Source: Beijerinckiaceae bacterium (GTDB taxonomy: Bacteria; Pseudomonadota; Alphaproteobacteria; Rhizobiales; Beijerinckiaceae). Taken from it: a stretch of DNA of 33,250 bases. The notes under the pieces are model-generated. The model saw only the letters and a program-made list of their open reading frames with translations. It had not been told where the DNA came from and did no database searches. A program made the translations under genes and the position numbers. Each line of letters starts with the position of its first letter. The stretch's first letter is position 1. Shown piece after piece: positions 2,975 to 27,761 of this stretch. The stretch lies in the NCBI GenBank assembly GCA_022702195.1, contig JAKONB010000402.1, positions 1 through 33,250 on the forward strand, given 5' to 3'.

Positions 2975-2989
2975 GTCGCTCCTCGATCC

Positions 2990-3205: not shown

Positions 3206-3226
3206 GCCCCACGGCCGGATCCCGCC

Positions 3227-3790
3227 TCACGGATGCTTGTGGATGGGGTCGACCCAATGGACCGTCTCCGGGCGTTCGACCGGGTCGACATCGGTGATGT
3301 TGACCACCACCGCCTCGTTGTCGGAGCGCACCAGCACGCATTGCAGGGGTTCGTCGGGGGAGGCGTTGATCTCCTGGTGCGGCACGTAGGGCGGCACGAA
3401 GATGAAGTCGCCGGGGCCGGCCTCGGCGACGTATTCGAGCCGGTCGCCCCAACGCATCCGGGCGCGGCCCGAGAGCACGAAGATCACGCTCTCCAGGGCG
3501 CCGTGATGATGCACGCCGGTCTTGGCGTCGGGCTCGATCGCCACGGTGCCGGCCCAGATCTTCTGCGCGCCGACGCGGGCATGGTTGATCGCCGCCTGCC
3601 GGAACATGCCCGGGGTCTGGGCGGTGTTGGCGTCGAGCTTGTCGCCGGGGATCACCCGGATGCCGTCGTGCTTCCAGCGGGCCGCCCCGTCGCCTGCAAC
3701 CGGCGTTGCAGTCTCGTGCGGCGTTTCATGGTCGTGCGGATGTTCGTGGTCGTGCGGAGTTTCATGGTCGGGATCGTGCATCGCTCGCAT
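3227..3790 (-). CDS. Cupin-domain protein with a His-rich N-terminal repeat
   Basis: Cupin motif 1 'GVHHHGALESVIFVLSGRARM' and motif 2 'GDFIFVPPYVPHQEIN'. Start is 3790 or 3781. Confidence 0.88.
   Translation of the reverse strand: MRAMHDPDHETPHDHEHPHDHETPHETATPVAGDGAARWKHDGIRVIPGDKLDANTAQTPGMFRQAAINHARVGAQKIWAGTVAIEPDAKTGVHHHGALESVIFVLSGRARMRWGDRLEYVAEAGPGDFIFVPPYVPHQEINASPDEPLQCVLVRSDNEAVVVNITDVDPVERPETVHWVDPIHKHP
3717..3770. repeat. Three 18-bp tandem repeats encoding DHETPH/DHEHPH/DHETPH
   Basis: tgcggcgtttcatggtcg / tgcggatgttcgtggtcg / tgcggagtttcatggtcg. Confidence 0.85.
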
Positions 3791-3806
3791 CCTGTTCGTC
3801 GGCCGC

Positions 3807-5845: not shown

Positions 5846-5870
5846 GGGAATCTCCTGATCTCGCGCTCGC

Positions 5871-7013
5871 TCAGACACCGAGGGCGGTGCGACCCGCGGC
5901 CGTGCGCACCGCGTCCCCCTGCGGCCAGTGGATGCGCGCGCAGAGCACGTCGCGCAGGTACCGCTCCAGCGGATTGCTGCGCGTGAGGCCTGGATTGCCG
6001 GACAGTTCGACGGCCCGCTGGACCAAGGCGACGGCGTTCTCGGTGACGGTGATCTTGAGGAAGCCCGCGTCGCGCGGGGTGGGCAAGCGCCCGGCATCGA
6101 CCTCCGCGGCGATGCCGGCGATCAGCCGGGCGTTCACCGCGAGCAGGCGCTCGTTCTCGCCAATCGCCTCCTGGAAGCGCGGGAGCGTCGCCAGCGGCGC
6201 CCCGAGGCTGCCGGGCTTGCGCTCGGAGACGAAGCGGATGAGCCACGCCTGCGCGGCCCGCGCGACGCCCTCATAGAGCGCGGCCAGCAAGGTGCAGCTC
6301 CAGGCCTGCTGGAGCGGATCGGGCTTGCGCCAATCGTCCGGCGCCCGCAGGTCGACGGCGTGGTCGGCCGGGACGGCGACGTCGTCCAGCAGGACATCGT
6401 GGCTGCCGCTCGCCCGCAGGCCGAGATGGTCCCAGGTTTCCACGATCCGCAGGCCGGGGGAGCCCAGCGGCACGAGAAAGTTGCCGATGCGCGGCTCGGC
6501 CTCGTCGGTGCGGGCGAAGACCAGCCCGTAGGTCAGCGCCGGGGAGCCGGTGGCGTAGATCTTCCGCCCGGTGATCCGCCAGCCCGCCTCGGAGCACCGA
6601 GCCACCGTCTCCGGCATGCCGCCGCGGGCCGGGGTGCCGAGGTCCGGCTCGACCCGCAATGCATTGATGAGCGCTCCGCGCTCCGTCGCCGCACGGCCGA
6701 CCGCGTCGGCAATGTCCCGCGGCCAGGCGGCATGGGTGTGGATCAGGCCGTGCTGCAGGAACTGCATGGCGAGGACGAGCGCGGTGGCCGGATCGCCTTC
6801 GGCGATGATCCGGACAACTTCGGCCGCACGGGAGAGACCGGCGGCGGCTCCTCCGAGCCGGCGCGGCACGGCCAGACCCAGCACGCCCGCTTCGCGCAGG
6901 GCCGCGATGTTCTCGTGGGAGAAGCGGCCGGTGCGGTCATACTCCGACGCTCGGCCCGCGAAGGCGCGGGCGAGGGCCGAAACGGTTTCGGTCGGGGAGA
7001 CGGGGGCGTTCAT
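5871..7013 (-). CDS. Acyl-CoA-dehydrogenase-fold flavoprotein, probably a DszC/SfnB/MsuC-type monooxygenase
   Basis: 'GWRITGRKIYATGS', 'WDHLGLRASGSHDV', 'PLERYLRDVLCARIH'. It has His instead of the IYEG catalytic Glu of true ACADs. Start set at MNAPV. Confidence 0.85.
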   Translation of the reverse strand: MNAPVSPTETVSALARAFAGRASEYDRTGRFSHENIAALREAGVLGLAVPRRLGGAAAGLSRAAEVVRIIAEGDPATALVLAMQFLQHGLIHTHAAWPRDIADAVGRAATERGALINALRVEPDLGTPARGGMPETVARCSEAGWRITGRKIYATGSPALTYGLVFARTDEAEPRIGNFLVPLGSPGLRIVETWDHLGLRASGSHDVLLDDVAVPADHAVDLRAPDDWRKPDPLQQAWSCTLLAALYEGVARAAQAWLIRFVSERKPGSLGAPLATLPRFQEAIGENERLLAVNARLIAGIAAEVDAGRLPTPRDAGFLKITVTENAVALVQRAVELSGNPGLTRSNPLERYLRDVLCARIHWPQGDAVRTAAGRTALGV

Positions 7014-7528
7014 CCGGGGCGGGCGATCCAGGCAAAGGCCGCGTCCCATCCGGAGCGGACGAGAGCGACGACAGTCGTAGAAAGTCCTGCCGGGGCGCCA
7101 CGAAGTCAACGAAACGGTATTCTTAATCCAGAACCGATCCGAGAAAGACGGTCTCCCATTCAGGGGGCGACCGAAGAATGATTGCTTTAATTTGCTGGGG
7201 GAAACCGTGTGCGGCGAAGCCGATCCGATAAGGGCGGCCGGGCATCGCGAGGCGGATCCAAAGGCAGGCCGACTCAGGATCGGCGTTCGAACGCCCCATA
7301 TTGTCTCCGATCCGCCGGAGGGATGGCCGAGGCGTGGTTCCTCGGCTCGACGATCCCGAGCTTCTCCGCCGCCGCTCAGGAATAGGATGATCGCCACGTA
7401 GAGGCGCCATAATTCAAAATACCATTCTGTTGTAAGCTGCCCCCCACGTCACTTACGATCGCGAACAGCTTTAAAAATCCGTCACGTCGCACCACGCGAC
7501 GGCGACCTCATCTGTTCAGCGCCCCAAC
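7014..7528. promoter_or_regulatory. Divergent promoter region between the monooxygenase operon and the osmC-ABC operon
   Basis: 515-bp intergenic stretch with two AT-rich blocks (about 7080-7200 and 7380-7480). Confidence 0.6.
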
Positions 7529-8056
7529 ATGACTGATCTCAACGCGTATCTCGCGCAGAAACGAACGGCTCTCGACCGGCGTCGGGAGCGCATCGGGCGC
7601 GGCGAGGTTGGCCCGGTGGCACTCAAAGCCGAGGCGACGGTGGAGGGGCGCAGCGGCGTGCGGCGCATCCGCATCCGGGACCACGCGGTGATCAGCGACA
7701 GCCTGCCCGATTTCGCCGGTTACGACCTCGGACCGGGCTCGCCCGAATTGCAGCTCGGCGTCCTCGGCTCCTGCCTCGCCCATTCCTTCCTGATCCAGGC
7801 GGCGGCCCTGGGCGTCCCGCTCGACTCCGTCACGGTGGAGTTGACGGCGACCTTCGATCCACGCTCCGGGGAGGCCGGGTACGAGGATGTACCGGTCCCG
7901 CCCCACGACCTCGCCTACACGGTCGGCCTTGCCTCGAGCGCGAGCGAGGCCGAACTCGATGCGCTGCATGCCCGGGTAGACCGCGCCTGCCCGATCCTGA
8001 ACCTGTTGCGGGGGCCGCAAGCCATCCGGGGCCGGATCGTGCGCATCGCCGCCTGA
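7529..8056 (+). CDS. OsmC/Ohr-family protein
   Basis: 'GPGSPELQLGVLGSCLAHS' and 'RACPILNLL' supply the two conserved OsmC-family cysteines. Confidence 0.85.
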   Translation: MTDLNAYLAQKRTALDRRRERIGRGEVGPVALKAEATVEGRSGVRRIRIRDHAVISDSLPDFAGYDLGPGSPELQLGVLGSCLAHSFLIQAAALGVPLDSVTVELTATFDPRSGEAGYEDVPVPPHDLAYTVGLASSASEAELDALHARVDRACPILNLLRGPQAIRGRIVRIAA

Positions 8057-8109
8057 TCCCATCGCCCTGCACCTGCCGAGATGGGTCCCGCGCGGCCCAG
8101 GAGACGACC

Positions 8110-9207
8110 ATGCCCGAGACCGAACTGCATCCGTCCCACCCAGACGCCACCCTGTCGCGCCGCCGCCTCCTGCGGGCGGGGATGAGCGCCGCGGCGGCCT
8201 TGCCCCTCGGCTTCGTGACGAGCACCGGCCGCGCCTGGGGGCCGGGACCCGGAACGCCGTTCGATCCCGGCCCGCTCTGCAGACCGACCGCCGCCGAGGC
8301 AGCCACCGGCCCGTTGCGGCCGATCAAGCTCGCTTGGAACGCCAACGCCATCTGCACGGCCGCCGCTCCCGTAGCCAAGGAGCGCGGGATCTTCGCCCGG
8401 CACGGGCTCGACGTGGATTTCGTGAATTTTGGCGGCTCCACCGAGGTGCTGCTGGAGGCGATCGCCACCGGCAAGGCGGATGCCGGCATCGGCATGGCCC
8501 TGCGCTGGCTGAAACCGATGGAGCAGGGCTTCGACGTGAAGATCACCGCCGGCCTGCATGGCGGATGCCTGCGGCTCCTCGGGGCGAAATCCGCCAACGT
8601 CACCGACATCGCGTCCCTGAAGGGCAAGACGATCGCCATCAGCGACCATGCGAGCCCTGCCAAGAACTTCTTTGGCCTGCTGCTGGCCGATGCGGGCCTC
8701 GATCCCGAGCGCGATGTCGAGTGGCGGCCCTACCCGGCGGACCTCCTCAACCTCGCGGTGGAGAAGGGTGAGGCTCAGGCGCTGGCGGATTCGGACCCGC
8801 GCACCTGGATCTGGCTCAAGGATCCGCGGCTCACCGAAGTCGCCACCAACCTGTCCGGCATCTACGCCACGCGCTCCTGCTGCGTGGTGGCTGTGCGCGG
8901 CTCCCTCATCCGCAACGACCGGGCCGTGGCCGGCGCCCTGACGCGGGCCGTTCTGGAGGGCGGACACCGCGTCCAGGACGATCCGACGGACGCGGCGGCG
9001 ATCTTTGGCAATTACGGCGGCAAGGGTTCGGTGGAGGATCTCGCCGCCATGCTGTGCAGCCAGACCCACCAGCACCGCCCCGTCGGAGCCGACCTGAAGC
9101 AGGAACTCGTCCTCTACGGCGACGAGCTGAAGCGGGTGAACGTACTGCGCCGAACCACCGACACGGCGAAGTTCGCCGAGCGCATCTATGCCGACGTGCT
9201 GAGCTGA
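8110..9207 (+). CDS. Tat-exported, Cys-rich NitT/TauT-type ABC substrate-binding protein
   Basis: SRRRLL twin-arginine motif; NMT1-like 'GIFARHGLDVDFV' and 'SLKGKTIAI'; RBS AGGAG; six Cys. Confidence 0.87.
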   Translation: MPETELHPSHPDATLSRRRLLRAGMSAAAALPLGFVTSTGRAWGPGPGTPFDPGPLCRPTAAEAATGPLRPIKLAWNANAICTAAAPVAKERGIFARHGLDVDFVNFGGSTEVLLEAIATGKADAGIGMALRWLKPMEQGFDVKITAGLHGGCLRLLGAKSANVTDIASLKGKTIAISDHASPAKNFFGLLLADAGLDPERDVEWRPYPADLLNLAVEKGEAQALADSDPRTWIWLKDPRLTEVATNLSGIYATRSCCVVAVRGSLIRNDRAVAGALTRAVLEGGHRVQDDPTDAAAIFGNYGGKGSVEDLAAMLCSQTHQHRPVGADLKQELVLYGDELKRVNVLRRTTDTAKFAERIYADVLS

Positions 9208-9215
9208 GGAACACC

Positions 9216-10235
9216 ATGTCCGGCAGCCTCGCGGGCACGCTCCGCCACGATTCCACCCGCGCCCGCTCCGGCACATCCCCCGGCTGGCTGTCGCGGATCC
9301 GCTGGGGTGGCCTCCTCGTCGGGGCCGTCTGGCTGGCCTTGGCCGCCGTGACCCTGCACCTGCCAGAGGATGGCGACTTTCCCTACACGACGGATTTCGC
9401 CATCGGTACCGCCCTTATCGGGGGGCTGCTCGCCGTCGCGCTTCCCCTTTCGGCGTCGCTGGGGCGCTTCGGGGGACGCTTGTCCGACCGGGGGCCATGG
9501 CTCGCAGTGCTGGGCCTCGGCCTCATCGTCTGGGAGCTTGTGACCGCCAAGTTCGCACTCCTGCCGATGCCATTCTTCCCGCCGCCGCAGGCCATCGTCG
9601 AAGTGTTCTTCGAGGATTGGCCCAAGCTCGGCGGCAGCACGGTCAATTCGCTGGTCCTGCTCGCTGGAGGCTACCTCATCGGCGCGGGAATCGGCTTCGT
9701 CCTCGGCATCGCCATCGGCTGGTCGCGGAGTGTCGGCTACTGGGCGCATCCGGTCCTACGCCTCGTCGGGCCGCTGCCGGCTACCGCCTGGCTGCCCATC
9801 GCCTTCTTCGTATTCCCCTCGTCCTGGTCCGCCAGCACCTTCCTGGTGGCCCTGGCTACCGGGTTTCCGGTCACGGTGCTGACTTGGTCCGGGGTCGCGG
9901 GTGCCAACAAGGCTTATTACGATGTCGCCCGCACGCTTGGGGCGTCGCAAACCTTCCTAATCCGCAAGGTCGCGATCCCGGCGGCCCTGCCGCATGTCTT
10001 CGTCGGGCTGTTCATGGGGCTGGGCGGCTCCTTCGCCGTGCTGGTGGTGGCCGAGATGCTCGGGGTAAAGTCGGGCCTCGGCTGGTACTTGCAATGGGCG
10101 CAGGGATGGGCCGCCTACGCCAACATGTATGCGGCGCTCATCGTCATGGCGCTGATGTGTTCGGGGCTGATCACCGTGCTGTTCCGACTGCGTGACCGCC
10201 TGCTCGCTTGGCAGAAGGGCCTCGTGCAATGGTAG
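9216..10235 (+). CDS. ABC transporter permease, NitT/TauT family, with an N-terminal membrane extension
   Basis: RBS GAGGA then MSGSL; TM helices; 'YYDVARTLGAS...KVAIPAALP...LVVAEMLG'. Confidence 0.9.
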   Translation: MSGSLAGTLRHDSTRARSGTSPGWLSRIRWGGLLVGAVWLALAAVTLHLPEDGDFPYTTDFAIGTALIGGLLAVALPLSASLGRFGGRLSDRGPWLAVLGLGLIVWELVTAKFALLPMPFFPPPQAIVEVFFEDWPKLGGSTVNSLVLLAGGYLIGAGIGFVLGIAIGWSRSVGYWAHPVLRLVGPLPATAWLPIAFFVFPSSWSASTFLVALATGFPVTVLTWSGVAGANKAYYDVARTLGASQTFLIRKVAIPAALPHVFVGLFMGLGGSFAVLVVAEMLGVKSGLGWYLQWAQGWAAYANMYAALIVMALMCSGLITVLFRLRDRLLAWQKGLVQW

Positions 10236-11026
10236 GCGTGCTCGCTCGTCCCCATGGGCCGGAAGCGGCCACCGCCACGGGCGCCCGGCTGACGGTGGTG
10301 GATGTGTCCCACGCCTTCGACCTTCGCGGTGCGCGCCTGCCCGTGCTCGAGCACGTTGACCTCGCAGTGGCACCGGGCGAGTTCGTCGCCCTGCTCGGCC
10401 CTTCGGGCTGCGGGAAATCCACCTTGTTGCGCCTCATCGCCGGGTTGGAACCACCGGATTCCGGAACCCTCACCGTCGATGGAAGCCCGATCATCGGGCC
10501 GGACCCGAGCCGCCTCCTCGTGTTCCAGGACCCGACCCTCTATCCCTGGCGCACCGTACGGGGGAACGTCGCCCTGGGCCTGGAGGCGCGGGGCCTGCTC
10601 AAGGCGCAAGGAGCACGCATCGACGAAGCGCTGCGCCTCGTCGGGCTGGCCGATTTCGCCGACGCCTACCCGCACCAGCTCTCCGGCGGCATGGCCCAGC
10701 GCACGGCGGTCGCCCGGGCGCTGGTGAACGAGCCACGCTTGCTACTGCTGGACGAACCCCTGGGCAAGCTCGACGCCCTGACGCGGCTGGCCATGCAGGG
10801 CGAGCTGGTCCGCCTCTGGCAGAAGAAGGGGTTTTCGGCCCTCCTGGTGACCCACGATGTCGAGGAGGCTCTGGTCCTGGCGGCTCGCGTCATCGTGCTG
10901 AGCGACCGCCCGTCCCGAATCCGGGCGGAGATCGTCAACGAGGCCCCCTATCCACGCCATCGCGACGATCCGAACCTCGTGCGCCTGCGCCGCGAGGTGC
11001 TGGAAATCTTGGGTCATGTCGCCTGA
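10229..11026 (+). CDS. ABC transporter ATP-binding protein, NitT/TauT family
   Basis: GPSGCGKS, LSGGMAQR, LLLDEP, VTHD; start overlaps the permease stop. Confidence 0.92.
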   Translation: MVGVLARPHGPEAATATGARLTVVDVSHAFDLRGARLPVLEHVDLAVAPGEFVALLGPSGCGKSTLLRLIAGLEPPDSGTLTVDGSPIIGPDPSRLLVFQDPTLYPWRTVRGNVALGLEARGLLKAQGARIDEALRLVGLADFADAYPHQLSGGMAQRTAVARALVNEPRLLLLDEPLGKLDALTRLAMQGELVRLWQKKGFSALLVTHDVEEALVLAARVIVLSDRPSRIRAEIVNEAPYPRHRDDPNLVRLRREVLEILGHVA

Positions 11027-11414
11027 ACCCACCGCCCCATCCGGCGACGACCGTCCCTCCGCGACGACCCCATTCGACGATGTCCGTCGCGCCCTGCCCT
11101 TCGGCGTACCGCGATCTCCGAGCGCGAACGAGATCTATGCGGTGAACGTCGATCTCCTATATCTCGGTGACGTCCTGCCTGGAGAGGCCGGACTCGATGC
11201 CCGGCTGGCCATGCCGAATCGGGATGGATCACCGGCGATCCCCGCCCCGACCTCCCGGCCACCGCGCGCCGAGCATGCGTCCTCGTTCCTCCACCGATCC
11301 CGGATCGGCGCCAACCCATCCCGCCCCCTCTCAAGGCACCTCTCCGCATGCTCCGTTCCCTCCGGTCTGCTCTCGCCGCTGCCGTGGCGCTCATCTCCAT
11401 CGGCACCGTCCTGA
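11016..11414 (+). CDS. Possible small hypothetical protein or gene remnant
   Basis: ATG overlaps the ATPase end and the ORF fills the 320-bp gap. The central part (EIYAVNVDLLYLGDVLPGEAGLDARL) looks protein-like, but the 3' end is low-complexity and overlaps the next gene by 67 nt. Confidence 0.3.
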   Translation: MSPEPTAPSGDDRPSATTPFDDVRRALPFGVPRSPSANEIYAVNVDLLYLGDVLPGEAGLDARLAMPNRDGSPAIPAPTSRPPRAEHASSFLHRSRIGANPSRPLSRHLSACSVPSGLLSPLPWRSSPSAPS

Positions 11415-12310
11415 ATGCCGAGGCGGCCGACACGAAAACCCTGCGGATCGGCTACCAGCGCTCCTCGACTCTGATCGCGCTGCTGCGCCAGGATTCCGCC
11501 CTGGAGACCAGCTTGAAACCGCTTGGCGTCACCGTGTCCTGGCATGAGTTCACCAGCGGCCTTCCGATCATGGAAGCCCTCAATGCCGGGCAGATCGACG
11601 TGTCGGCCGATGTGGCCGACACGGTCCCGATCTTCGCGCAGGCGGCGGGGGCGAAGATCAGCTACATCGCGCAAGAGGCGCCCTCGCCGGAAGCCCAAGC
11701 GATCCTGGTGCCGGCCGACTCAGTCCTCACATCCGTGGCCGAGCTGAAGGGCCGGCGGGTGGCGGTGACCAAGGGCGCGGGCAGCCACTACCTGTTGCTG
11801 GCTGCGCTCACGGAGGGCGGCCTGTCGTTCAAGGCGATCACCCCCGCTTATCTCACGCCGGCCGATGGCCGGGCGGCTCTGGCGAGCGGCGGGGCCGATG
11901 CCTGGGTCGCGTGGGATCCCTTCCTCTCCGCAGCGCGCCAGCAATCGGGAGCCCGTGTGTTGCGCGACGGGACCGGTCTCTCGCTCTACAAACGCTACTA
12001 CCTCGCCTCAGACGACTATGTGGCCAAGCAAGGTGACGTGCTGACCGTGCTGTTCGGCAAGCTCGCCGAGACCGGCGCCTGGGTGAAGGCCGAGCCGGAG
12101 GCCGCCGCCGCCCGCCTGTCGCCCGTCTGGAAGATCGACGCCGACGTGATCGTGCGTGCCAATGCGCGCCGCAGCTACCGGGTCGAGCCCGTCACCCGGG
12201 CCGGGCTAAGCGAGCAGCAGAAGATTGCCGACGCGTTTCGGGGCGAGGGCCTGCTGCCCCGTGCGGTGGATGCTTCGGCCCTCGGGATCTGGCAGCCGCC
12301 AGCCCGCTAA
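11348..12310 (+). CDS. ssuA: Aliphatic sulfonate ABC substrate-binding protein (SsuA-like)
   Basis: Signal peptide; 'LRIGYQR', 'VSWHEFTSGLPIMEALNAGQID', 'LKGRRVAVTKGAGSHYLL', 'DAWVAWDPF'. Confidence 0.85.
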   Translation: MLRSLRSALAAAVALISIGTVLNAEAADTKTLRIGYQRSSTLIALLRQDSALETSLKPLGVTVSWHEFTSGLPIMEALNAGQIDVSADVADTVPIFAQAAGAKISYIAQEAPSPEAQAILVPADSVLTSVAELKGRRVAVTKGAGSHYLLLAALTEGGLSFKAITPAYLTPADGRAALASGGADAWVAWDPFLSAARQQSGARVLRDGTGLSLYKRYYLASDDYVAKQGDVLTVLFGKLAETGAWVKAEPEAAAARLSPVWKIDADVIVRANARRSYRVEPVTRAGLSEQQKIADAFRGEGLLPRAVDASALGIWQPPAR

Positions 12311-18982: not shown

Positions 18983-20257
18983 TCAGGCCGACGCGCTGAC
19001 TCGCGCGTACCGGCTGACCGCGAGGTCCTGGCTGGGGATCTCGGGCGTGCGGCCAGAGACCAGATCCGCCAACAACCGTCCCGAACCGCAGGCCATGGTC
19101 CAGCCCAGCGTGCCATGACCCGTATTGGTGAACAGGTTGGACAGGCACGTCGCACCGACGATGGGCGTGCCGTCCGGCGTCATCGGGCGTAGGCCGGTCC
19201 AGAACCGGGCCTGTGCCACGTCCCCGCCCGCCGGGAATAGGTCGCCAAGGGATCGCGCCAGAGTCTCCCGCCGCGGCAGACGCAGGATCTGGCTGAAACC
19301 GGCGAGTTCGGCGGTGCCACCGACCCGGATGCGATCGCCCAGGCGGGTGATCGCGACCTTGTAGGTCTCATCCATCACGGTGGAGACTGGCGCCGCCTCC
19401 GGATTGGTGACCGGCAGGGTCAGGGAATAACCCTTCACCGGATAGACCGGCAGGTGGATGCCGAGGGGGCGCAGCAGAGCCGGGGTGTAGCTGCCCATGG
19501 CGGCCACGTAGGCATCGGCCGCCAGCGTCTCCCCCTGCCCCGTGATCACGCCGGCGATCCGGTCGCCGTCGCGCCGCAGTCCCGTGATGGCCGTGCCATA
19601 TCGGAACACGACGCCCAACTCCGCGCAGAGCGCCGCGAGCCTCTGGGTGAACAGGTGGGCGTCGCCGGTCTCGTCCCCTGGCAATCTCAGGCCGCCCACG
19701 AAGGTGCCGGTCACCCTGGCCAGGGCCGGCTCGGCAGCGACGCAGCCGGCTGGGTCGAGCACCCCGTAGGGCACGCCGTACACGTCGAGGATGCGAGTGT
19801 CGTCGCCCACGTGGTCGAGTTGCTTCTGCGTCCGGAAAAGCTGGAGCGTACCCTGCTCGCGGTGGTCGTAGGCGATTCCGGTCTCGCCCCGCAGGTCCCT
19901 CAGAACGTCGCGGCTATACTCGGCCAAGCGCACCATCCTGCCCTTGTTGCGCTGGTAGGCCTCCTCGGTGCAATTTGCCAGCATGCGCGCCAGCCAGCCG
20001 TAGAGGCGCGGCTCGACACTTGGCCACAGCACCAGGGGCCGGTGCCGCATCATCAGCCACTTCAGGGCTTTCACCGGGATGCCGGGCGCGGCCCAAGGCG
20101 CCGAATAGCCGGGAGAAACCTGGCCGGCATTGGCGAAGCTCGTCTCAAGCCCCGCGCCGGGCTGACGCTCCACCACCGTGACCTGGTGCCCGGCCTTGGC
20201 AAGGTAATAGGCCGACGTGATTCCGACGACACCGCCGCCGAGGATGATGACATGCAT
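18983..20257 (-). CDS. dadA: D-amino acid dehydrogenase
   Basis: '[19 protein letters not shown]', '[22 protein letters not shown]', 'YPVKGYSLT', '[12 protein letters not shown]', '[16 protein letters not shown]'. Confidence 0.96.
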
Positions 20258-20268
20258 GGCCGAGGCCC

Positions 20269-21420
20269 TCAGGAAGTCAGGTAGGTCCGGTGATAGCGCG
20301 CGCCGAGGCTCGTTAGGATCTCGTAGCCGATGGTGCCGGCGGCCTCGCCCAAGGCGTCGACGTCGTTGTACGGTCCCACGAGATCCACGAGGTCGCCCAC
20401 TGCGGGCGATCCGGGAGGGGCGGCGGCCAGATCGACGATGATGCTGTCCATTGAGACCCGGCCCACCACCGGCAGGCGATGCGCGCCGAAATAGGCGGCA
20501 GCGCGCCCGGAGGCGCTGCGCAGATAGCCGTCGGCATAGCCGGCCGACACGATAGCGAGGCGCATCGGCCGGCGCGCCACGGCGGTATGGCCGTACCCGA
20601 TGCCGGTGCCGGCCGGAATCTCCCGCACCTGTACGATCCGCGCTTGAAGGCGGATCACCGGCCGCATCGGGTTGGGCCGGCCGGAAATCGGGTTGACGCC
20701 GTAGAGCGCGACCCCGGGGCGGACCCGGTCGAACTGGTATCCGGGGCCAAGCAGGATGCCGGACGAGGCCGAGAGGCTGGCTGGCACGCCGGGCAGGCGC
20801 CGGCAGATCGCCGCGAAGGCGTCCCGCTGGGCGGCGTTGGCGGGATGTCCCGGCTCACTGGCGCAGGCCAGATGACTCATGACGAGGCGTAGCGCGATGC
20901 CATCGAGCCCGCCGGGCGCGGCGAGCAGCGCCTCGAACTCGCGCCGGGACAGGCCAAAGCGCGACATGCCGGTATCGACCTGGAGGATGGCCGGCAGCGT
21001 CTGCCCCCGCGCGCGGGCGAGGTCGGCCCAGGCGGCGACATGCTCCGGGGCGCTCAGAACCGGCAGCAGGGCGGCGGCGTAGCACTCCGCCTCGGTGCCC
21101 GGGGGCGCCCCGTGCAGCACCGCGATCTCGGGCTCAGAGCCTAGGATGGCGCGCAGGTGGATGCCCTCGTCGAGATGCGCCACGAAGAAATGCCGGCATC
21201 CGGCTGCGGCGAGGCTCGGCGCCACGGCGGCGGCGCCGAGCCCGTAGGCATCGGCCTTGACCACCGCCGCGCAGGTCGCGGTGGTCCGGGCGCGCAGGAT
21301 ACCGTAATTCGCCACGATCGCCGACAGGTCGATGGTCAGGACGCCGCCGGCCATCCGCGAATCCCCGGTGGAGACCGGAGCGGCCGAAATGCCGAGGGGA
21401 GCTCGATCGATCGACGTCAT
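20269..21420 (-). CDS. alr: Alanine racemase (catabolic DadX-type context)
   Basis: PLP-Lys motif '[11 protein letters not shown]', 'VDTGMSRFG', 'MSHLACA', 'IGYG', 'GYADG', 'GRVSMD', 'GTIGYEILT'. An alternative start is MAGGV at 21354. Confidence 0.95.
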
Positions 21421-21459
21421 GGCGGGTCGGGTCGCTGCGTGAGAAGCCGCGGTGCTAAC

Positions 21460-21849
21460 TTACAATTCGCCGGTAAGGAACTGCGCCCGGCCATGGCCGA
21501 ATGACCAATCCGCGTCGGTGTTCTCCACGGTGGAGATCATCACGTCGGCGGGCGCGATGCCGCAGGCGGTCTGGAGCTTCTCGGTGAGCAGCCGGTAGAA
21601 TAGGGCCTTCTTCTCGGTGCCGCGCGGGCGGGTGATCATCTGCACCACCACCACGTCCTTGGTCCGCGGGATGCCCAGCCCCGTATCCTCGACGATCATG
21701 CGGGAGGGCTTGTGCTCGGTCACGACCTGGTAGCGGTCGCCCTGGGGCACCTGAAACGCCTCCACCATCGCCTCATGCGCAGCGTCCAGCAGTGTCTGCA
21801 GTTCCGCGTCGGTGCGGCCTTCCAGGATGTCGAAACGCATCAAGGGCAT
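21460..21849 (-). CDS. Tautomerase-superfamily protein, malonate semialdehyde decarboxylase (MSAD)-like
   Basis: 129 aa. After Met removal it has Pro1, Asp37 (GDRYQ), Arg73 and Arg75 (TRPR), plus the C-terminal 'ENTDADWSFGHGRAQFLTGEL'. Length and catalytic positions match my recollection of Pseudomonas pavonaceae MSAD. Confidence 0.85.
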   Translation of the reverse strand: MPLMRFDILEGRTDAELQTLLDAAHEAMVEAFQVPQGDRYQVVTEHKPSRMIVEDTGLGIPRTKDVVVVQMITRPRGTEKKALFYRLLTEKLQTACGIAPADVMISTVENTDADWSFGHGRAQFLTGEL

Positions 21850-21886
21850 AGATCTGAGAACCTTGTGTGGGGTCGAGAACGTGCGA

Positions 21887-23236
21887 TCAGGCTTCGGCGC
21901 GGATGAGGCCGCGCAGCATCTCGATCATATCGGTGATCTGGGTGGGCGTCGCGATGAAGGGGGGACCCATCGCGATGGTGTCCCCGGTGCAGCGCAGGAG
22001 GATCCCGTCGCGCAGGCCACGCTCGAAGATGCGCAGCGCCCGGGCGCCGGGCTGGCCGGGCGTCGGTTCGAGATCCACCGCCGCGGTCAGCCCAAAATTG
22101 CGGATGTCACGGATGCCCGGCTCGCCGCGCAGGGTGTGGACGGCGCCTTCCAGCACCGGCTCCAGTTCGCGCACGCGGCCGAACAGGTCGCCTTCCTCCA
22201 TGAGGTCGAGGGTGGCGTGCGCCACCGCGGCGGCCAGGGGATGGCCCGAATAGGTGTAGCCGTGGAACAGCTCCACTGTCGCCGCCGGACCGGTCATGAA
22301 CGTTTCGTAGACGTCCTGACGGACGAGGACGCCGCCCATCGGCACGATGCCGTTGGTGATGCCCTTGGCGAAGGTGATCATGTCCGGCGTTACGCCGAGG
22401 CGCTGCGCGCCGAAGGGTGCGCCCAACCGACCGAAACCGGTGATCACCTCGTCGAAGATCAGGAGGATGCCGTGCCGGGTGCAGATCTCGCGCAAGCGCT
22501 GGAGGTAGCCGAGCGGCGGCACGATGACGCCGGCCGAGCCCTGCAGCGGCTCGACGATCACGGCCGCGATGGTCGCGGCGTCGTGCAGTGCCACGAGGCG
22601 CTCCAGATCATCGGCCAGGTGCGCGCCCCAGGTCGGCTGCCCCTTCGAGAAGGCCATCTCTGCGTAATCGTGGGTATGGCGCAGGTGGTCAACGCCGGGG
22701 ATCATCGCGGTGGCGAACATCTTGCGGTTGGCCACCATGCCGCCCACCGACATGCCGCCGAAGCCGACGCCGTGATAGCCCTTTTCGCGCCCGATCATCC
22801 GGAAGCGGCCGGCCTCGCCGCGCAGGCGATGGTAGCCGAGGGCGATCTTGAGGGCGGTGTCGACGGCCTCGGAACCCGAATTGGTGAAGAAGACACGGTC
22901 CAACCCGTCGGGCGCCAGTTCTGTCACCCGCTCGGCCAGCCGCAGCGTCACCGGATTGGTCATCTGGAAGGCGGTGCAATAGTCGAGGGTCTCGGCCTGA
23001 TGGCGCAGGGCCTCGACGATCCGCGGCTGGGCATGGCCCAGGGGGCAACACCACAAACCGGACAGGCTGTCGAACAGGTCGCGCCCCTCCGCCGTGCGGT
23101 AATAGGCGCCCTTGGCCGAGACGATGACCCGCGGATTCGGGTCGGCCTTAACGTGGCGGTTGGGTGTGAACGGCATCCAGTACGGCTCGATGTTGAGCTG
23201 CCGGGCGCTGTCGTGATCGATGATCGTCTGATCCAT
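21887..23236 (-). CDS. Class III omega-amino acid:pyruvate aminotransferase (beta-alanine-pyruvate/BauA-like)
   Basis: 'YWMPFT.NR', 'SGLWCC.LGH', 'NSGSEAVDTALK', 'GYHGVGFGGMSVGG', 'IFDEVITGFGR', PLP-Lys 'FAKGITNG', 'FHGYTYSGHP'. Confidence 0.92.
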   Translation of the reverse strand: MDQTIIDHDSARQLNIEPYWMPFTPNRHVKADPNPRVIVSAKGAYYRTAEGRDLFDSLSGLWCCPLGHAQPRIVEALRHQAETLDYCTAFQMTNPVTLRLAERVTELAPDGLDRVFFTNSGSEAVDTALKIALGYHRLRGEAGRFRMIGREKGYHGVGFGGMSVGGMVANRKMFATAMIPGVDHLRHTHDYAEMAFSKGQPTWGAHLADDLERLVALHDAATIAAVIVEPLQGSAGVIVPPLGYLQRLREICTRHGILLIFDEVITGFGRLGAPFGAQRLGVTPDMITFAKGITNGIVPMGGVLVRQDVYETFMTGPAATVELFHGYTYSGHPLAAAVAHATLDLMEEGDLFGRVRELEPVLEGAVHTLRGEPGIRDIRNFGLTAAVDLEPTPGQPGARALRIFERGLRDGILLRCTGDTIAMGPPFIATPTQITDMIEMLRGLIRAEA

Positions 23237-23454
23237 GGCCGTCCCGCCGTTCCGCGCCGTTCGTCTCGCGTCTCGGGGAATGACGTTAGCGCGGGCACGC
23301 GAGACTGCCTATTGACAGTTGGCACCCTGAGCGGTGCAGCTGTATCGGCCACGGAACTGAGACAGTCGCCCCAGCGATCGTCCAATCCGAAGTCCCCGCA
23401 TTCGACCGGGGATTGCCGCCGGATCCGGTGCCTGGCCACGTACGGGAATTGTGT
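23237..23454. promoter_or_regulatory. Divergent promoter with candidate MocR operator repeats
   Basis: ACTG-N8-CAGT at 23304-23319, CAGCTGTAT at 23337-23345, ACTG-N3-CAGT at 23356-23366; GACAGT occurs twice. Confidence 0.5.
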
Positions 23455-24867
23455 ATGATCAGTCTCGATCCGGCCAGCACCGCGCCCCTGGTGGTGCAGC
23501 TGGTGACGGCGTTCTCCGAGAAGATCCGGGCCGGCGCCGTCACGCCGGGTGCACGCCTGCCGTCGGTGCGCAAGCTCGCCGCCCAATGTGGGGTCAGCAC
23601 CCTGACGGTGTCGAACGCCTACAACCGGCTCGTGGCGGACGGCCTCCTCGAGGCGCGCCGGGCGAGCGGCTACTTCGTCTCGGCCCGGCTGCCCGACCGG
23701 GTGCCGCCCGCCCCGCGCGGCCAGCCGGTGGCGATCTCGGTGGATTCCGGATGGCTGCTCCAACGGATCTACGAAGAGGACACGCTGACCATCAAGGCCG
23801 GCTGCGGCTGGCTTCCGGACAGCCACCTGTTCGCGGACGGCATCAAGCAGGCCCTGTCGGCCCTGGCGCGGCAACCCGACCGGCTCGTTTCCCGCTACGG
23901 CCATCCCCTCGGCCACGCCCCCCTGCGCCGGGCGATCCAGCGGCTACTCGTGCAACGCAACATCGACTGCAACGCCGAGCAGATTGTCCTCACCCACGGG
24001 GCCAGCCAAGCCCTCGACCTGACCATGCGCAGCTTCCTGCGGCCAGGCGACGTCGCCCTCGTCGACGATCCCGGCTATTGCAACCTCTACCCGTCGCTCC
24101 ACGCCATGGGCGTGACGATCGTCGGGGTCGAACGCACGCTCCAGGGGCCGTCGGTGGCCGCACTCCAGGCGCTGGCCGAGCGGTACAAGCCGAAGCTGTT
24201 CTTCACCAACACCAATTTCCACAACCCCACCGGCACCCCCTGCTCGCCGGCCACCGCCCACCAGATCCTCTGCATCGCCGAGAAGCACGATTTCCAGATC
24301 GTCGAGGACGACATCTATGCGAGCTTCTCGGAGGAGACGGCGCCGAGCATCGCCAGCCTCGACCAGCTCGGGCGCGTGATCCATATCGGCAGCTTCTCGA
24401 AGACCATCTCGCCGGCGCTGCGGGTGGGCTACCTCGCCTGCAATCCCGACACCGCGCACCGGCTGCTGCACCTGAAGATGGCGGCGGGACTGACCAGCTC
24501 CGAGATCTCCGAGAGCCTGGTCCACGCGATCCTCACCGAGGGACAGTACCGGCTGCACATCGCCCGCCTGCGCGACAAGCTCGCGACCGAGCAGAAGGTC
24601 GTGGCCGACGCCCTCCTGTCGGTGGGGCTGTCGCTCTTCCACCGCCCGGCCAACGGCCTGTTCCTCTGGGCCGGGTTCGGCGACCGGCGCGACATGGCGG
24701 CCATGGCGCAGCGGGCGGCGGCCAAAGGCATCATGCTCGCCCCCGGCCACCTGTTCCGGGCGCATCAGGAGGCGACGCCCTGGCTGCGCTTCAACGTGGC
24801 GCATGCCAATGCGGCGCCGCTGTTCCGGTTTCTCGAACAGGAGCAAGGGCGCGTCGAGGGCGCCTGA
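23455..24867 (+). CDS. MocR/GabR-family transcriptional regulator (GntR HTH plus PLP aminotransferase-like domain)
   Basis: 'GARLPSVRKLA...VSTLTVSNAYNRLVADG', 'HNPTG', 'EDDIY', 'GSFSKTISPALRVG'. Start set at MISLD. Confidence 0.93.
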   Translation: MISLDPASTAPLVVQLVTAFSEKIRAGAVTPGARLPSVRKLAAQCGVSTLTVSNAYNRLVADGLLEARRASGYFVSARLPDRVPPAPRGQPVAISVDSGWLLQRIYEEDTLTIKAGCGWLPDSHLFADGIKQALSALARQPDRLVSRYGHPLGHAPLRRAIQRLLVQRNIDCNAEQIVLTHGASQALDLTMRSFLRPGDVALVDDPGYCNLYPSLHAMGVTIVGVERTLQGPSVAALQALAERYKPKLFFTNTNFHNPTGTPCSPATAHQILCIAEKHDFQIVEDDIYASFSEETAPSIASLDQLGRVIHIGSFSKTISPALRVGYLACNPDTAHRLLHLKMAAGLTSSEISESLVHAILTEGQYRLHIARLRDKLATEQKVVADALLSVGLSLFHRPANGLFLWAGFGDRRDMAAMAQRAAAKGIMLAPGHLFRAHQEATPWLRFNVAHANAAPLFRFLEQEQGRVEGA

Positions 24868-24882: not shown

Positions 24883-26511
24883 TCAGCCGAGTCGCCGCGT
24901 GTCGACGAAGGTCCGCCCATCGGGAAAGCGGTAGCTGACGCTCTCGGACAGCCGCCCGTTGGCCCGGACCAGGATCGCGGCCGGGCGGGTCAGGTCGTCG
25001 GTGCGGGCCAGGGCCTCGGCGACGCTCATGGGCACGTCGCGCCCGCCACCGAGTTGGCGCCACCATTGCACCGCCTTCTCGCGGGGATAGCCGGTCTGCT
25101 CCAGATCGATCCGCACCCGGTGGCAGCCGCCATCCTCGGTGTGAAGGAGAACCTCGAGGCTGTCGCGCTCGCCCAGCACGGCGTGGCGGCTCAGACGCCA
25201 GCCGGCGACACCGCGCCAGATCGGCGTCGCGCGGGACAGGATCGGATGTTCGTCCTCGGCCGCCGCCTCGTGGGGAACCCCGTCCTCCTCCGCGTCCTCC
25301 GGCTCCACCCAGCAGCCCTCGCAGGTGCTGGCGTTGAGGGGGATCAGCGCGCCGCAGCCCGGACAGGGTTTCGCCCGCACCTCGCCTTCCCGCCCCTTGA
25401 TCGCGGCGGCCGAGCGCGCGGTGACGATGTCGACCGGGCCGTGCATCCGCACCAGCCCGGCATAATCGAGGATCAGCGCATCCGTCTTGCCCGGCGCGTT
25501 GCGCAGGGCGCGCCCCACCTGCTGGACGTAGAGGCCGGTGCTCTGGGTCGGGCGCAGCAGGGCGATGAGGTCGACGCGGGGCACGTTGAAGCCCGTGGAG
25601 AGGACGCCGATGGACGTGAGGCAGCGCAGGCGCCCCTCGCGAAACTCGCGCACGATCCGGTCGCGCTCGCGCTTGCCGGTCTCGCCCGTCACCATCTCGC
25701 AGGGGATCCCGTGCGTCCGCACCGCGTCGCGTACCGCCTCCGCATGGGCGAGACCGGCGCAGAAGGCGAGCCAGGAGCGGCGCCCGCGCCCGAATTCGAC
25801 CATCTCCTCCACCGCCGCGCGGGTGATCCAATCCTGGTTCACCGCCGCCTCCAGGGCGCTCGGGATGTAGTCGCCGCCGCGCTTGGCCACCCCGGAGACG
25901 TCCAGAGCCGTGGCGGTGGCCTTGCAGATCAGGGGGGCGAGGTAGCCCTGGTGGATCAGGTCACCGACATTCACCTCGTAGACGATCCGCTCGAACAGCC
26001 GGCCCTCGCCCTCGTCGAGGCGACCGCTGTCGAGGCGGTACGGGGTGGCGGTGAGGCCGACGACCCGCAGATCCGGCCGCGCGGTCCGCAGCTCGGCCAG
26101 GAAGCGGCCGTAGCGGGTCTCGGCGGCGCGGGGGATCAAGTGGGCCTCGTCCACCACCACGAGATCGAAGGCGCCGATGGCGGCGACCCGGTTCCACACC
26201 GATTGGATGCCGCAGAACAGGATCTGCGTGTCGGTGTCGCGCCGGCCGATACCGGCGGAGTAGATGCCCGCCGGGGCCTCCGGCCAGGTGACGGTGAGTT
26301 CCCGGTGGTTCTGGGCGATGAGTTCGCGGGTATGGGTGACGATGGCCACGCGCGACGCCGGTCGACGCGCGATCACCTCCCGCACCAGGGCAGCGATGAC
26401 GAAGGCCTTGCCCGCCCCCGTCGGCAGGACGATCAGCCCGTCGCCGGCCTCTTGCCGCCAAAAGGCGTAGAGGGCGTCGAGGCTGGCGCGCTGGTAGGGT
26501 CTGAGCTCCAT
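24883..26511 (-). CDS. Superfamily 2 DEAH helicase with a C-terminal Zn finger (RadD/YejH-like, phage-helicase-like)
   Basis: Q-motif LRPYQ, Walker A LPTGAGK, DEAH, motif III TAT, motif VI QQVGRALR, CPGC...CEGC. Confidence 0.9.
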   Translation of the reverse strand: MELRPYQRASLDALYAFWRQEAGDGLIVLPTGAGKAFVIAALVREVIARRPASRVAIVTHTRELIAQNHRELTVTWPEAPAGIYSAGIGRRDTDTQILFCGIQSVWNRVAAIGAFDLVVVDEAHLIPRAAETRYGRFLAELRTARPDLRVVGLTATPYRLDSGRLDEGEGRLFERIVYEVNVGDLIHQGYLAPLICKATATALDVSGVAKRGGDYIPSALEAAVNQDWITRAAVEEMVEFGRGRRSWLAFCAGLAHAEAVRDAVRTHGIPCEMVTGETGKRERDRIVREFREGRLRCLTSIGVLSTGFNVPRVDLIALLRPTQSTGLYVQQVGRALRNAPGKTDALILDYAGLVRMHGPVDIVTARSAAAIKGREGEVRAKPCPGCGALIPLNASTCEGCWVEPEDAEEDGVPHEAAAEDEHPILSRATPIWRGVAGWRLSRHAVLGERDSLEVLLHTEDGGCHRVRIDLEQTGYPREKAVQWWRQLGGGRDVPMSVAEALARTDDLTRPAAILVRANGRLSESVSYRFPDGRTFVDTRRLG

Positions 26512-26744
26512 CGCGGGGTCTCTACGGCGCTTCGCGACGATCGGGAACACCCGGTTCGGTCAGTCGCCCATACCGGCTCGAACATCCCGGCTCGAGCATG
26601 CGATCTCGGGTCGGCGGCCGATTCCCAGGCGCCGACCATCGAAATTCGGCGTGAATGATAGGAACGAATCGTGTCCGAAACCTTCATGATTTGGTAGTCA
26701 GGCTGACGCCACGTGGGTGGCGAAGCGCGGGATGCGGGGAGAGC

Positions 26745-27761
26745 ATGCTCAAGGCACTGACGGCGATCGACCTGTTCGCGGGCGCTGGCGGCTTGAGCCT
26801 CGGCCTGAAGGCAGCCGGTTTTCATGCCGTCGCCGCCATCGAGCGCGACGCGGATGCCGTCGCCACCTACAAAGCCCATGTCGGTGCCGACGAGGTGATC
26901 GAGAGGGATGCCGGCGCCGTCGATTTCACCCGTTTCAAGGGCATCGACCTGGTCGCGGGCGGGCCGCCCTGCCAACCGTTTTCGACCGGTGGGCTTCGGC
27001 TGGGTCAGGGGGACGGACGGGACTTGCTGCCGGTTTTCGTTCGGGCGGTTCTGGAGGCGAAGCCACGCGCCTTCCTGCTGGAGAACGTTCCGGGTCTGGC
27101 GACGCTCGCCCATCGGGACTACCTGGTGGAGGTGCTCGCGCCGCTGCAGCGCCTGTACACCTTCTCAGGGCCGCATCTCCTCAACGCCGCCGATTATGGT
27201 GTGCCGCAATCGCGCCGGCGGATGATCCTGGTCGGCCTGCGAGAGGGGGAATTCCGTCTCCCGCCCGGCGCCCCCCTCCATCGTGTCGCTGCGGGAACCG
27301 TCCTGTCGCCCAAGCCGAACGGTGAACCGAACCGTTCGCAGGTCGTCTATGCCCGGACACCGGACCTTCGTCCGAGCCCTTATCATGGCCACCTCTTCAA
27401 CGGTGGCGGTCGTGCGATCGACCTGAACGGTCCGGCTCCGACCATGCTCGCCTCTGCCGGCGGCAACAAGACCCACTGGATCGATGTTGGCGGCCACGTG
27501 CCCCCCTACCATGCCCACCTCCGCGAGGGCGGAAAACCACGGGTCGGTCACGTTCCGGATGCGCGCCGTCTCACCGTGGAGGAATGCGCGGCGATCCAGA
27601 CCTTCCCGGATGGCATGACGTTCACGGGCTCGCGGTCGTCCCGTTATACGCAGGTCGGCAATGCCGTTCCGGTCCGTCTGGCCCAAGCCGTCGGCGAAGG
27701 CATCTTCGATCAGCTTCGCGCGCAGGTCTCACGGCGCCGCCGTCAGACCGTGAGCGCGTAA
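26745..27761 (+). CDS. DNA (cytosine-5)-methyltransferase
   Basis: Motif I DLFAGAGG, IV GGPPCQPFS, VI ENVPG, VIII QSRRR, IX RRLTVEECAAIQTFP, X QVGNAVP; RBS GGAGAG. Confidence 0.95.
   Translation: MLKALTAIDLFAGAGGLSLGLKAAGFHAVAAIERDADAVATYKAHVGADEVIERDAGAVDFTRFKGIDLVAGGPPCQPFSTGGLRLGQGDGRDLLPVFVRAVLEAKPRAFLLENVPGLATLAHRDYLVEVLAPLQRLYTFSGPHLLNAADYGVPQSRRRMILVGLREGEFRLPPGAPLHRVAAGTVLSPKPNGEPNRSQVVYARTPDLRPSPYHGHLFNGGGRAIDLNGPAPTMLASAGGNKTHWIDVGGHVPPYHAHLREGGKPRVGHVPDARRLTVEECAAIQTFPDGMTFTGSRSSRYTQVGNAVPVRLAQAVGEGIFDQLRAQVSRRRRQTVSA

What the first reader, a model, noticed from the sequence alone, without database searches (positions are those of the whole stretch)
18983..24867. Candidate undescribed beta-alanine catabolic cycle: omega-transaminase, malonate semialdehyde decarboxylase, Alr and DadA under a MocR regulator
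Seen: four tightly spaced co-directional genes (gaps of 37, 39 and 11 bp) divergent from a MocR/GabR regulator; the tautomerase keeps Pro1, Asp37, Arg73 and Arg75. Known: BauA-type enzymes convert beta-alanine + pyruvate to malonate semialdehyde + L-Ala, and the semialdehyde is normally removed by a CoA-acylating dehydrogenase (BauB/MmsA type), which is absent from this window. MSAD converts malonate semialdehyde to acetaldehyde + CO2 and is best known from 1,3-dichloropropene/3-chloroacrylate degradation. Alr plus DadA convert L-Ala to pyruvate + NH3. Inference: the operon forms a closed loop that regenerates pyruvate, giving net beta-alanine -> acetaldehyde + CO2 + NH3 + reducing equivalents without CoA or NAD. 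This would give MSAD a natural physiological role and the organism a nitrogen source. I know of no description of this operon but cannot confirm novelty.
Basis: partly seen in the sequence, partly recalled or inferred. Interest (0 to 1): 0.85.

Follow-up and report, generated by a model that had tools for sequence, protein, structure and literature searches.

The report
Beta-alanine operon ending in acetaldehyde
A plant-dwelling Methylobacterium carries a gene set that likely strips nitrogen from beta-alanine and discards the carbon as acetaldehyde and CO2, using a small enzyme best known from fumigant breakdown in the gene slot where related bacteria have a CoA-dependent dehydrogenase, which would give that enzyme an everyday natural job.

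Summary
Observation confirmed. The genes are an omega-amino acid:pyruvate transaminase (AptA/BauA type), a close homologue of P. pavonaceae MSAD (about 59% identical, all listed active-site residues kept), a catabolic Alr and DadA, divergent from an OapR-like MocR regulator with a conserved three-box operator. Comparative evidence favours beta-alanine. In four Gluconobacter loci the regulator-transaminase-MSAD unit abuts the uracil-to-beta-alanine genes. MSAD sits where sister genomes and Cupriavidus have MmsA. Across 146 genus genomes, 39 of 42 lacking MmsA have this MSAD, against 17 of 104 with MmsA. Corrections: the five-gene order was found only here (9 of 9 sister operons lack alr); the regulator-transaminase pair is the known OapR/OapT unit; the transaminase-MSAD link is one clade, not repeated convergence; a natural MSAD context (IolK) was already noted. 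The beta-alanine source in Methylobacterium is unidentified, and nothing was assayed. Ten paper searches found no description of this route, but key older papers were unavailable. The scan has not noted this operon before; it noted an MSAD in an inositol operon. Verdict: new variant of a known kind, interest 0.55.

The parts
21887..23236 (-). omega-amino acid:pyruvate transaminase (AptA/BauA/OapT type), 449 aa
   Evidence: NF052567 AptA 653 bits over cut-off 500; best PDB hits 4B98, 4UHM, 3A8U at E about 1e-128, next family 1e-85; residues matching F24, F89, G120, S121, Y153, D259, K288, T327 and R414 of 4UHM are kept
21460..21849 (-). malonate semialdehyde decarboxylase homologue, PpMSAD type, 129 aa
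   Evidence: best PDB hit 2AAG, E 2e-49, ungapped, 75 of 128 identities counted from the printed alignment; P1, D37, Y39, R73, R75, W114, F116, F123 and L128 present
20269..21420 (-). alanine racemase of the catabolic clade, accessory member of the operon
   Evidence: TIGR00492 over cut-off; 49-52% identical to the single alr of close kin but 68% to an Lrp-alr-dadA cassette alr; tree separates it from those single-copy alr genes with support 100; absent from 9 of 9 sister operons
18983..20257 (-). D-amino acid dehydrogenase DadA
   Evidence: NF001933 667 bits over cut-off 383; only close copy in the assembly; follows MSAD in 9 of 9 sister operons
23315..23365 (.). predicted operator: three boxes in alternating direction, ACAGT-N22-CTGT-N16..21-ACAG type
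   Evidence: conserved in 15 aligned intergenic regions; 1 match in the window, 0 in 100 shuffles; 1 match in the whole assembly; 18 of 226 loci match, all upstream of this transaminase clade. The pattern was derived from 14 of those loci, so the count is partly circular
23455..24867 (+). MocR-family regulator, OapR-like, 470 aa
   Evidence: GntR and Aminotran_1_2 domains; 42% identical to the Ralstonia MocR divergent from omega-transaminase and mmsA; groups with it at only 89/90 support

Best explanation
This is likely a beta-alanine-inducible nitrogen-scavenging operon in which the transaminase would make malonate semialdehyde and L-alanine, MSAD would decarboxylate the semialdehyde to acetaldehyde and CO2, and Alr plus DadA would release ammonia and return pyruvate. 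Shown here: gene identities, conserved catalytic residues, the conserved operator-like motif, the position of MSAD in the slot that MmsA occupies in related operons, and the near-complementary distribution of MSAD and MmsA in the genus. Inferred: the inducer, the substrate, each activity, co-transcription and the net reaction (beta-alanine + H2O + quinone -> acetaldehyde + CO2 + NH3 + quinol). The conserved core is regulator | transaminase-MSAD; DadA is a frequent add-on and the operon copy of alr is optional, a separate alr elsewhere presumably serving. Irreversible decarboxylation would pull the reversible transamination and remove a reactive aldehyde without CoA or NAD, at the price of not conserving an acetyl-CoA thioester, which fits use for nitrogen more than for carbon.
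For: MSAD identity and residues (residue list from PMC10606566). Transaminase closest to beta-alanine:pyruvate enzymes. In 4 of 80 MSAD loci (Gluconobacter) regulator|transaminase-MSAD directly abuts dihydropyrimidinase, RutR-like, PreT-like, PreA and a hydantase-family amidase, the route that yields beta-alanine (PMC7332683). MmsA directly follows a BauA-type transaminase in G001, G007, G013, G017, G034 and Ralstonia; in G007 and G034 dadA-alr-Lrp lies next to it, the same module with MmsA in place of MSAD. Genus-wide: MSAD only 39, MmsA only 87, both 17, neither 3 of 146. 15 of 16 other transaminase-MSAD genomes tested lack MmsA. The two genus genomes with this regulator and transaminase but no adjacent MSAD (G012, G634) have MmsA. 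OapR of C. necator responds to beta-alanine (PMC7057948). No alanine dehydrogenase in 5 of 5 tested genomes, so Alr/DadA is the evident alanine sink. MSADs with the same residues sit after iolC-iolD-iolB and beside nitronate monooxygenases, other sources of the same semialdehyde.
Against: No activity, induction or expression data. All transaminase-adjacent MSAD cases fall in one transaminase clade and inside one MSAD clade, so they may be a single origin; the genus counts are of kin and not independent. 46 of 56 close MSADs in the genus are not next to this transaminase, and only 13 of 80 MSAD loci and 2 of 80 transaminase-anchored metagenome loci show the pair. PreA was not found in 19 of 19 Methylobacterium genomes tested, so uracil is not the beta-alanine source there; no transporter is in the operon. 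G072 (Acetobacter conturbans) has both the pair and MmsA, and G631 and G636 hold MSAD and MmsA in one cluster. BauA-type enzymes are promiscuous (PMC4907197; P. putida PP_0596 also serves 3-aminobutyrate and 3-aminoisobutyrate). Orthology of the regulator to OapR is only moderately supported.
Confidence: 0.75

Rival explanations
1. Same chemistry, other main substrate: the operon chiefly handles a beta-alanine analogue, such as 3-aminoisobutyrate or 3-aminobutyrate (giving propionaldehyde or acetone after decarboxylation) or hypotaurine (giving acetaldehyde by loss of the sulfinate).
For: The transaminase family is promiscuous; OapR also responds to 3-aminobutanoate; thymine goes through the same Pyd genes (established knowledge); sulfonate-type scavenging genes lie 7-19 kb away in the window; no uracil route in Methylobacterium.
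Against: The MSAD pocket residues listed for PpMSAD are unchanged. The sulfur genes do not flank the operon in relatives: nucleotide matches of four sister loci to the window cover only the operon genes. Beta-alanine is reported as the primary OapR ligand.
Confidence: 0.12
2. MSAD is a general clean-up enzyme for malonate semialdehyde in lineages without MmsA, and its place here, like that of alr-dadA, is convenient clustering; the operon trims beta-alanine and alanine pools but does not support growth on beta-alanine nitrogen as a closed cycle.
For: Most close MSADs stand alone; alr is missing from sister operons; an Lrp-alr-dadA cassette exists on its own in G012; in the P. putida passages read, beta-alanine fitness is tied to PP_0596, PP_0597, davT and gltBD, with no mention of dadA for that condition; MSAD and MmsA can share one cluster.
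Against: DadA stays behind MSAD in 9 of 9 sister operons; alr-dadA is beside the transaminase in two other arrangements, Gluconacetobacter L063/L064 and G007/G034; the operator is conserved.
Confidence: 0.1
3. It is a GABA-use regulon, as first predicted for OapR, with the tautomerase doing something unrelated.
For: PMC5320631 assigns OapR/OapT/OapD to GABA.
Against: That was a prediction; OapR was later shown to respond to beta-alanine. Succinic semialdehyde is not a beta-oxo acid and is not an MSAD-type substrate (established chemistry); no succinate-semialdehyde dehydrogenase gene is in the operon.
Confidence: 0.03

Closest known systems
OapR-OapT-OapD (MocR H16_A0271, aptA, mmsA1) of Cupriavidus necator H16 and Ralstonia (PMC5320631, PMC6572756, PMC7057948)
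   Same: MocR regulator divergent from an omega-amino acid:pyruvate transaminase, followed by a malonate-semialdehyde-removing gene; similar operator boxes
   Different: MSAD occupies the MmsA slot, and alr-dadA follow; regulator only 42% identical
Beta-alanine transaminase plus MmsA operons of Pseudomonas (KES23458/KES23460, PMC4907197; PP_0596/PP_0597, bioRxiv 2021.12.09.472016)
   Same: same transaminase family and active-site residues
   Different: LysR control in P. putida; the product is acetyl-CoA through NAD and CoA
MSAD of Pseudomonas pavonaceae 170 (PDB 2AAG), 1,3-dichloropropene pathway
   Same: about 59% identity without gaps; all listed catalytic and pocket residues
   Different: fed there by chloroacrylate dehalogenase (PMC7318290); here no dehalogenase neighbour, but a transaminase
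IolK of the Lactobacillus casei BL23 iol operon
   Same: MSAD homologue in a natural pathway that yields malonate semialdehyde; I saw the like in an Agrobacterium plasmid, iolC-iolD-iolB-MSAD
   Different: inositol rather than beta-alanine; IolK seen only as a listing, its activity not read
Taurine:pyruvate aminotransferase Tpa coupled to alanine dehydrogenase Ald (PMC5320631)
   Same: pyruvate-alanine recycling linked to an omega-transaminase under a MocR regulator
   Different: Alr/DadA instead of Ald; different substrate and end step
Extended Pyd pathway endings PydD-PydE and MSDH (figure legend in PMC7332683)
   Same: nitrogen release from beta-alanine after uracil reduction
   Different: listed endings are a reductase or a dehydrogenase; no decarboxylase ending is named in that paper

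Membership tests
MSAD, PpMSAD type | N-terminal Pro1 on a fused beta-alpha-beta tautomerase of about 129 aa | tested here: met
MSAD, PpMSAD type | Asp37, Arg73, Arg75 and pocket Trp114, Phe116, Phe123, Leu128 (not the FG41 Thr72/Gln73/Tyr123 pattern) | tested here: met
   residue list from PMC10606566
MSAD, PpMSAD type | measured decarboxylation of malonate semialdehyde | not testable with these tools
   needs an assay; PMC5818174 warns that subgroup members may not catalyse the founder reaction
MSAD, PpMSAD type | homotrimer | not tested
   no structure or complex prediction was run
beta-alanine:pyruvate transaminase (AptA/BauA) | score over the AptA equivalog cut-off; nearest solved relatives are beta-alanine:pyruvate enzymes | tested here: met
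beta-alanine:pyruvate transaminase (AptA/BauA) | PLP lysine, Asp259, Tyr153 and the carboxylate-binding Arg414 of 4UHM | tested here: met
   K291, D262, Y154, R415
beta-alanine:pyruvate transaminase (AptA/BauA) | beta-alanine is the physiological donor | tested here: inconclusive
   Pyd linkage in Gluconobacter supports it; no such source in Methylobacterium
OapR regulon | MocR gene divergent from an omega-amino acid:pyruvate transaminase | tested here: met
OapR regulon | three boxes in alternating direction, as described for Rhizobiales | tested here: met
   the paper's motif figure was not visible, so the box letters were not compared with it
OapR regulon | orthology to betaproteobacterial OapR | tested here: inconclusive
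   89/90 support with a long unrelated branch inside; unrelated MocRs are also 40-42% identical
OapR regulon | OapD/MmsA dehydrogenase downstream of the transaminase | tested here: not met
   MSAD is in that place; 4 of the 13 published OapR regulons also list OapT without OapD
DadAX alanine catabolism | catabolic alr next to dadA | tested here: met
DadAX alanine catabolism | adjacent Lrp/DadR regulator | tested here: not met
   Lrp hits lie on other contigs; Lrp is adjacent in G007, G034, G012 and Gluconacetobacter

The most novel reading that the evidence does not exclude
PpMSAD-type enzymes are a widespread natural substitute for MmsA/IolA: a cofactor-free exit for malonate semialdehyde recruited to beta-alanine and uracil, inositol, nitropropionate and perhaps 3-hydroxypropionate catabolism, with the fumigant pathway a recent borrower. 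This operon is then a self-contained, CoA- and NAD-free beta-alanine deamination cycle, and a decarboxylative ending of reductive pyrimidine degradation exists in acetic acid bacteria.
Probability: 0.55. Interest if true: 0.68.

Novelty: new variant of a known kind. Interest (0 to 1): 0.55.

Why it matters
MSAD is known mainly from breakdown of a man-made fumigant, and most members of its subgroup are uncharacterised (PMC5818174). A named natural pathway in culturable strains (Methylobacterium bullatum, Gluconobacter wancherniae, Gluconacetobacter johannae) makes its native role directly testable. It would add a further ending to beta-alanine and uracil catabolism, explain how 39 of 146 Methylobacterium-genus genomes do without MmsA, and flag an unannotated drain on malonate semialdehyde in hosts engineered for 3-hydroxypropionate (the passages of PMC5663086 that I searched do not mention acetaldehyde).

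Tried and rejected
Conserved five-gene operon: rejected; found in 1 of 146 genus genomes and in none of 80 MSAD-anchored loci in this order; two Gluconacetobacter loci have all five genes rearranged. An alr remnant between MSAD and dadA in sister genomes: not found. Many independent transaminase-MSAD pairings: not supported, one clade (quick and FastTree methods, the careful MSAD tree did not finish). Independent recruitment of dadA: the DadA tree is badly rooted and does not decide it. Uracil as the local beta-alanine source: PreA not found; the dihydropyrimidinase on contig C240 sits with a cyanuric acid hydrolase and looks like another pathway. Link to the window's sulfur genes: not conserved. 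Promoter and terminator scan: at chance level. GMC oxidoreductase next to MSAD as HpdH: only placed in the choline dehydrogenase subfamily, so left as a lead. A Fisher test on the first 34 genomes is not used, as kin are not independent. No structure or complex prediction was run, as the sequence match to 2AAG was clear. PMC6816092 and PMC7082587 are not held.
Full report
Observation. The window is contig C270 of a 70% complete, 3.7 Mb assembly. The nearest named MSAD loci, up to 91% identical, are Methylobacterium and Methylorubrum, so I take the host to be a Methylobacterium. GC3 is 0.86-0.92 in all five. Plant metagenome contigs of two studies bridge the same junctions.

The enzymes. The 129-aa protein matches P. 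pavonaceae MSAD (2AAG) at E 2e-49 without gaps, 75 of 128 identities by my count of the printed alignment; FG41 MSAD follows at 1e-28, and the other tautomerases are far weaker. It keeps P1, D37, Y39, R73, R75, W114, F116, F123 and L128; the PpMSAD signature is given in PMC10606566 (passages). Of 103 homologous loci scored, 96 keep all nine, one is cut short and six deviate. The transaminase passes the AptA cut-off, is closest to beta-alanine:pyruvate enzymes 4B98, 4UHM and 3A8U, and keeps the PLP lysine and the arginine that PMC4907197 places at the beta-alanine carboxylate (passages; numbering). Alr and DadA pass their cut-offs. The Alr is of the catabolic type: 68% to the alr of an Lrp-alr-dadA cassette in G012, 49-52% to the single alr of close kin.

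Synteny. Of 80 MSAD loci from species genomes, 13 have the transaminase adjacent, 12 the MocR, 8 DadA and 5 Alr. In the whole genus sample (146 genomes), 12 have this transaminase clade: the window, 9 with MocR | transaminase-MSAD-DadA and no alr, and 2 with MocR | transaminase but no adjacent MSAD. Two Gluconacetobacter loci have all five genes rearranged, with Lrp-alr-dadA between the regulator and the transaminase. Four Gluconobacter loci have MocR | transaminase-MSAD directly beside dihydropyrimidinase, a RutR-like gene, a PreT-like gene, PreA and a hydantase-family amidase. Among 80 transaminase-anchored metagenome loci only 2 have MSAD; 5 have MmsA and 6 others a Pyd-type gene. So the five-gene order is local, and the conserved core is regulator | transaminase-MSAD.

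MSAD in the MmsA slot. In G001, G007, G013, G017 and G034, MmsA directly follows a BauA-type transaminase, and in G007 and G034 dadA-alr-Lrp lies beside it. Ralstonia has MocR | transaminase-mmsA, as does C. necator (PMC6572756, passages). Over the genus, a close MSAD (E <= 1e-45) is in 56 of 146 genomes and MmsA in 104 of 146: both 17, MSAD only 39, MmsA only 87, neither 3. Of 16 other distinct genomes with the transaminase-MSAD pair that I tested, 15 lack MmsA; G072 is the exception. Against over-reading this: kin are not independent; the 18 labelled transaminase-MSAD rows fall in one 20-row transaminase clade (support 99) and inside one MSAD clade, with the acetic acid bacteria nested among Methylobacteriaceae rows, which suggests one origin and a transfer; and G631 and G636 carry MSAD and MmsA in one nitronate monooxygenase cluster.

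Other contexts. MSADs with the same residues follow iolC-iolD-iolB on an Agrobacterium plasmid, lie beside nitronate monooxygenases, one of which is closest to 4Q4K, and follow a LysR-linked GMC oxidoreductase in three acetic acid bacteria. That inositol breakdown and class I nitronate monooxygenase give malonate semialdehyde is recalled, not from a call. HpdH is a choline-dehydrogenase-annotated GMC enzyme, but I did not show that this one is HpdH. Most MSAD loci have no informative neighbour. In a draw of 400 phylum genomes, 13 had an MSAD at E <= 1e-30.

Regulation. The intergenic regions share three boxes in alternating direction. The pattern occurs once in the window (0 of 100 shuffles), once in the assembly and in 18 of 226 loci, 17 with transaminase-MSAD plus G012; it was built from 14 of these. 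PMC5320631 (section 13 and supplement rows) describes this layout for OapR in Rhizobiales, lists Acetobacter pasteurianus, and predicts GABA. PMC7057948 (passages) shows that C. necator OapR responds to beta-alanine (Km 201 uM) and to 3-aminobutanoate. The Ralstonia upstream region has similar boxes by eye. The window's MocR joins the betaproteobacterial OapR-like rows at 89/90, with one unrelated long branch inside, so orthology is likely but not shown.

Mechanism (inferred). Beta-alanine would induce the operon; the transaminase would give malonate semialdehyde and L-alanine; MSAD would give acetaldehyde and CO2; Alr and DadA would give pyruvate, NH3 and electrons to the respiratory chain. 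No alanine dehydrogenase was found in 5 of 5 genomes tested. Aldehyde dehydrogenases to take the acetaldehyde further are in the assembly. The source of beta-alanine is open: PreA is in 6 of 6 acetic acid bacteria but 0 of 19 Methylobacterium genomes tested, and PanD was not found in the incomplete assembly. Plant-derived beta-alanine or polyamines are my guess.

Literature. Ten full-text searches. 'Malonate semialdehyde decarboxylase' with 'beta-alanine' gave 0 papers; the term alone gave 13, of which I read passages of four (PMC10606566 with its introduction, PMC5818174, PMC11641302, PMC7318290), none linking it to beta-alanine. I also read passages of PMC4907197, PMC7142369, PMC5663086, PMC6572756, PMC7057948, PMC7332683 and bioRxiv 2021.12.09.472016; other papers were seen as search listings only. 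The library lacks most subscription papers: the Pyd extension papers were not held, and the Whitman-lab primary papers and 1960s Pseudomonas beta-alanine work, which by my recall may mention decarboxylation to acetaldehyde, were not seen. Supplements other than that of PMC5320631 were not read, and those of the bioRxiv paper are closed; they may bear on whether dadA matters for beta-alanine in P. putida. The scan's notes held no look-alike by sequence or place; by words they held an MSAD in an iol operon and other endings for the same semialdehyde, unchecked notes that I do not count as support.

Verdict. A real operon; every part belongs to a known family, and the regulator-transaminase unit is known. 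What appears undescribed is MSAD standing in for MmsA in beta-alanine and uracil catabolism, and its complementary spread in a genus. New variant of a known kind; best explanation 0.75; interest 0.55.

Noticed in passing
window 150-12310: Cluster of NMT1-type binding proteins, ABC transporter parts, a luciferase-like monooxygenase, an acyl-CoA dehydrogenase-like gene, a cupin and OsmC; looks like organosulfur scavenging.
   Followed up: partly
window 24883-27761: RadD-like helicase convergent with the MocR gene, then a C5 cytosine methylase; these flanks differ from those of sister operons, so the operon has probably moved.
   Followed up: no
G000:C49:5917-6285 (L213): Second tautomerase of the MSAD group, 44% identical, with P1, D37, R73 and R75 but Y39F; a cupin-like neighbour scores weakly as mandelonitrile lyase.
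   Followed up: partly
L266 4997-10090; also L296, L297, L299, L265: Recurrent cluster of nitronate monooxygenase and MSAD, with DUF485, ActP and a second nitronate monooxygenase in M. nodulans; in G631 and G636 MmsA lies alongside. Possibly nitropropionate use.
   Followed up: partly
L095 5350-9053; L097, L100: LysR, GMC oxidoreductase, MSAD and (in two loci) an aldehyde dehydrogenase in acetic acid bacteria; would fit 3-hydroxypropionate to acetate through acetaldehyde.
   Followed up: partly
L044 3058-4500 and about 20 similar loci: The stand-alone MSAD of many Methylobacterium and Methylorubrum genomes lies near Wadjet JetA and DUF4194 genes, a LysR gene and an MFS transporter.
   Followed up: no
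L199, L201, L202: In G022, G029 and G032, which lack MmsA, the BauA-type transaminase is followed by formate-tetrahydrofolate ligase, with MSAD elsewhere.
   Followed up: no
L033, L035, L039, L040 at about 7390-7750: A roughly 370-bp spacer with long inverted repeats by eye, between MSAD and dadA; REP-like, not an alr remnant.
   Followed up: no
G000:C240 (L212): Dihydropyrimidinase, cyanuric acid amidohydrolase, allantoate amidohydrolase-like and ureidoglycolate lyase-like genes with an ABC transporter: another nitrogen-scavenging cluster.
   Followed up: no
L073 7181-8462: preA of Gluconobacter roseus NBRC 3990 is in two pieces in this assembly.
   Followed up: no
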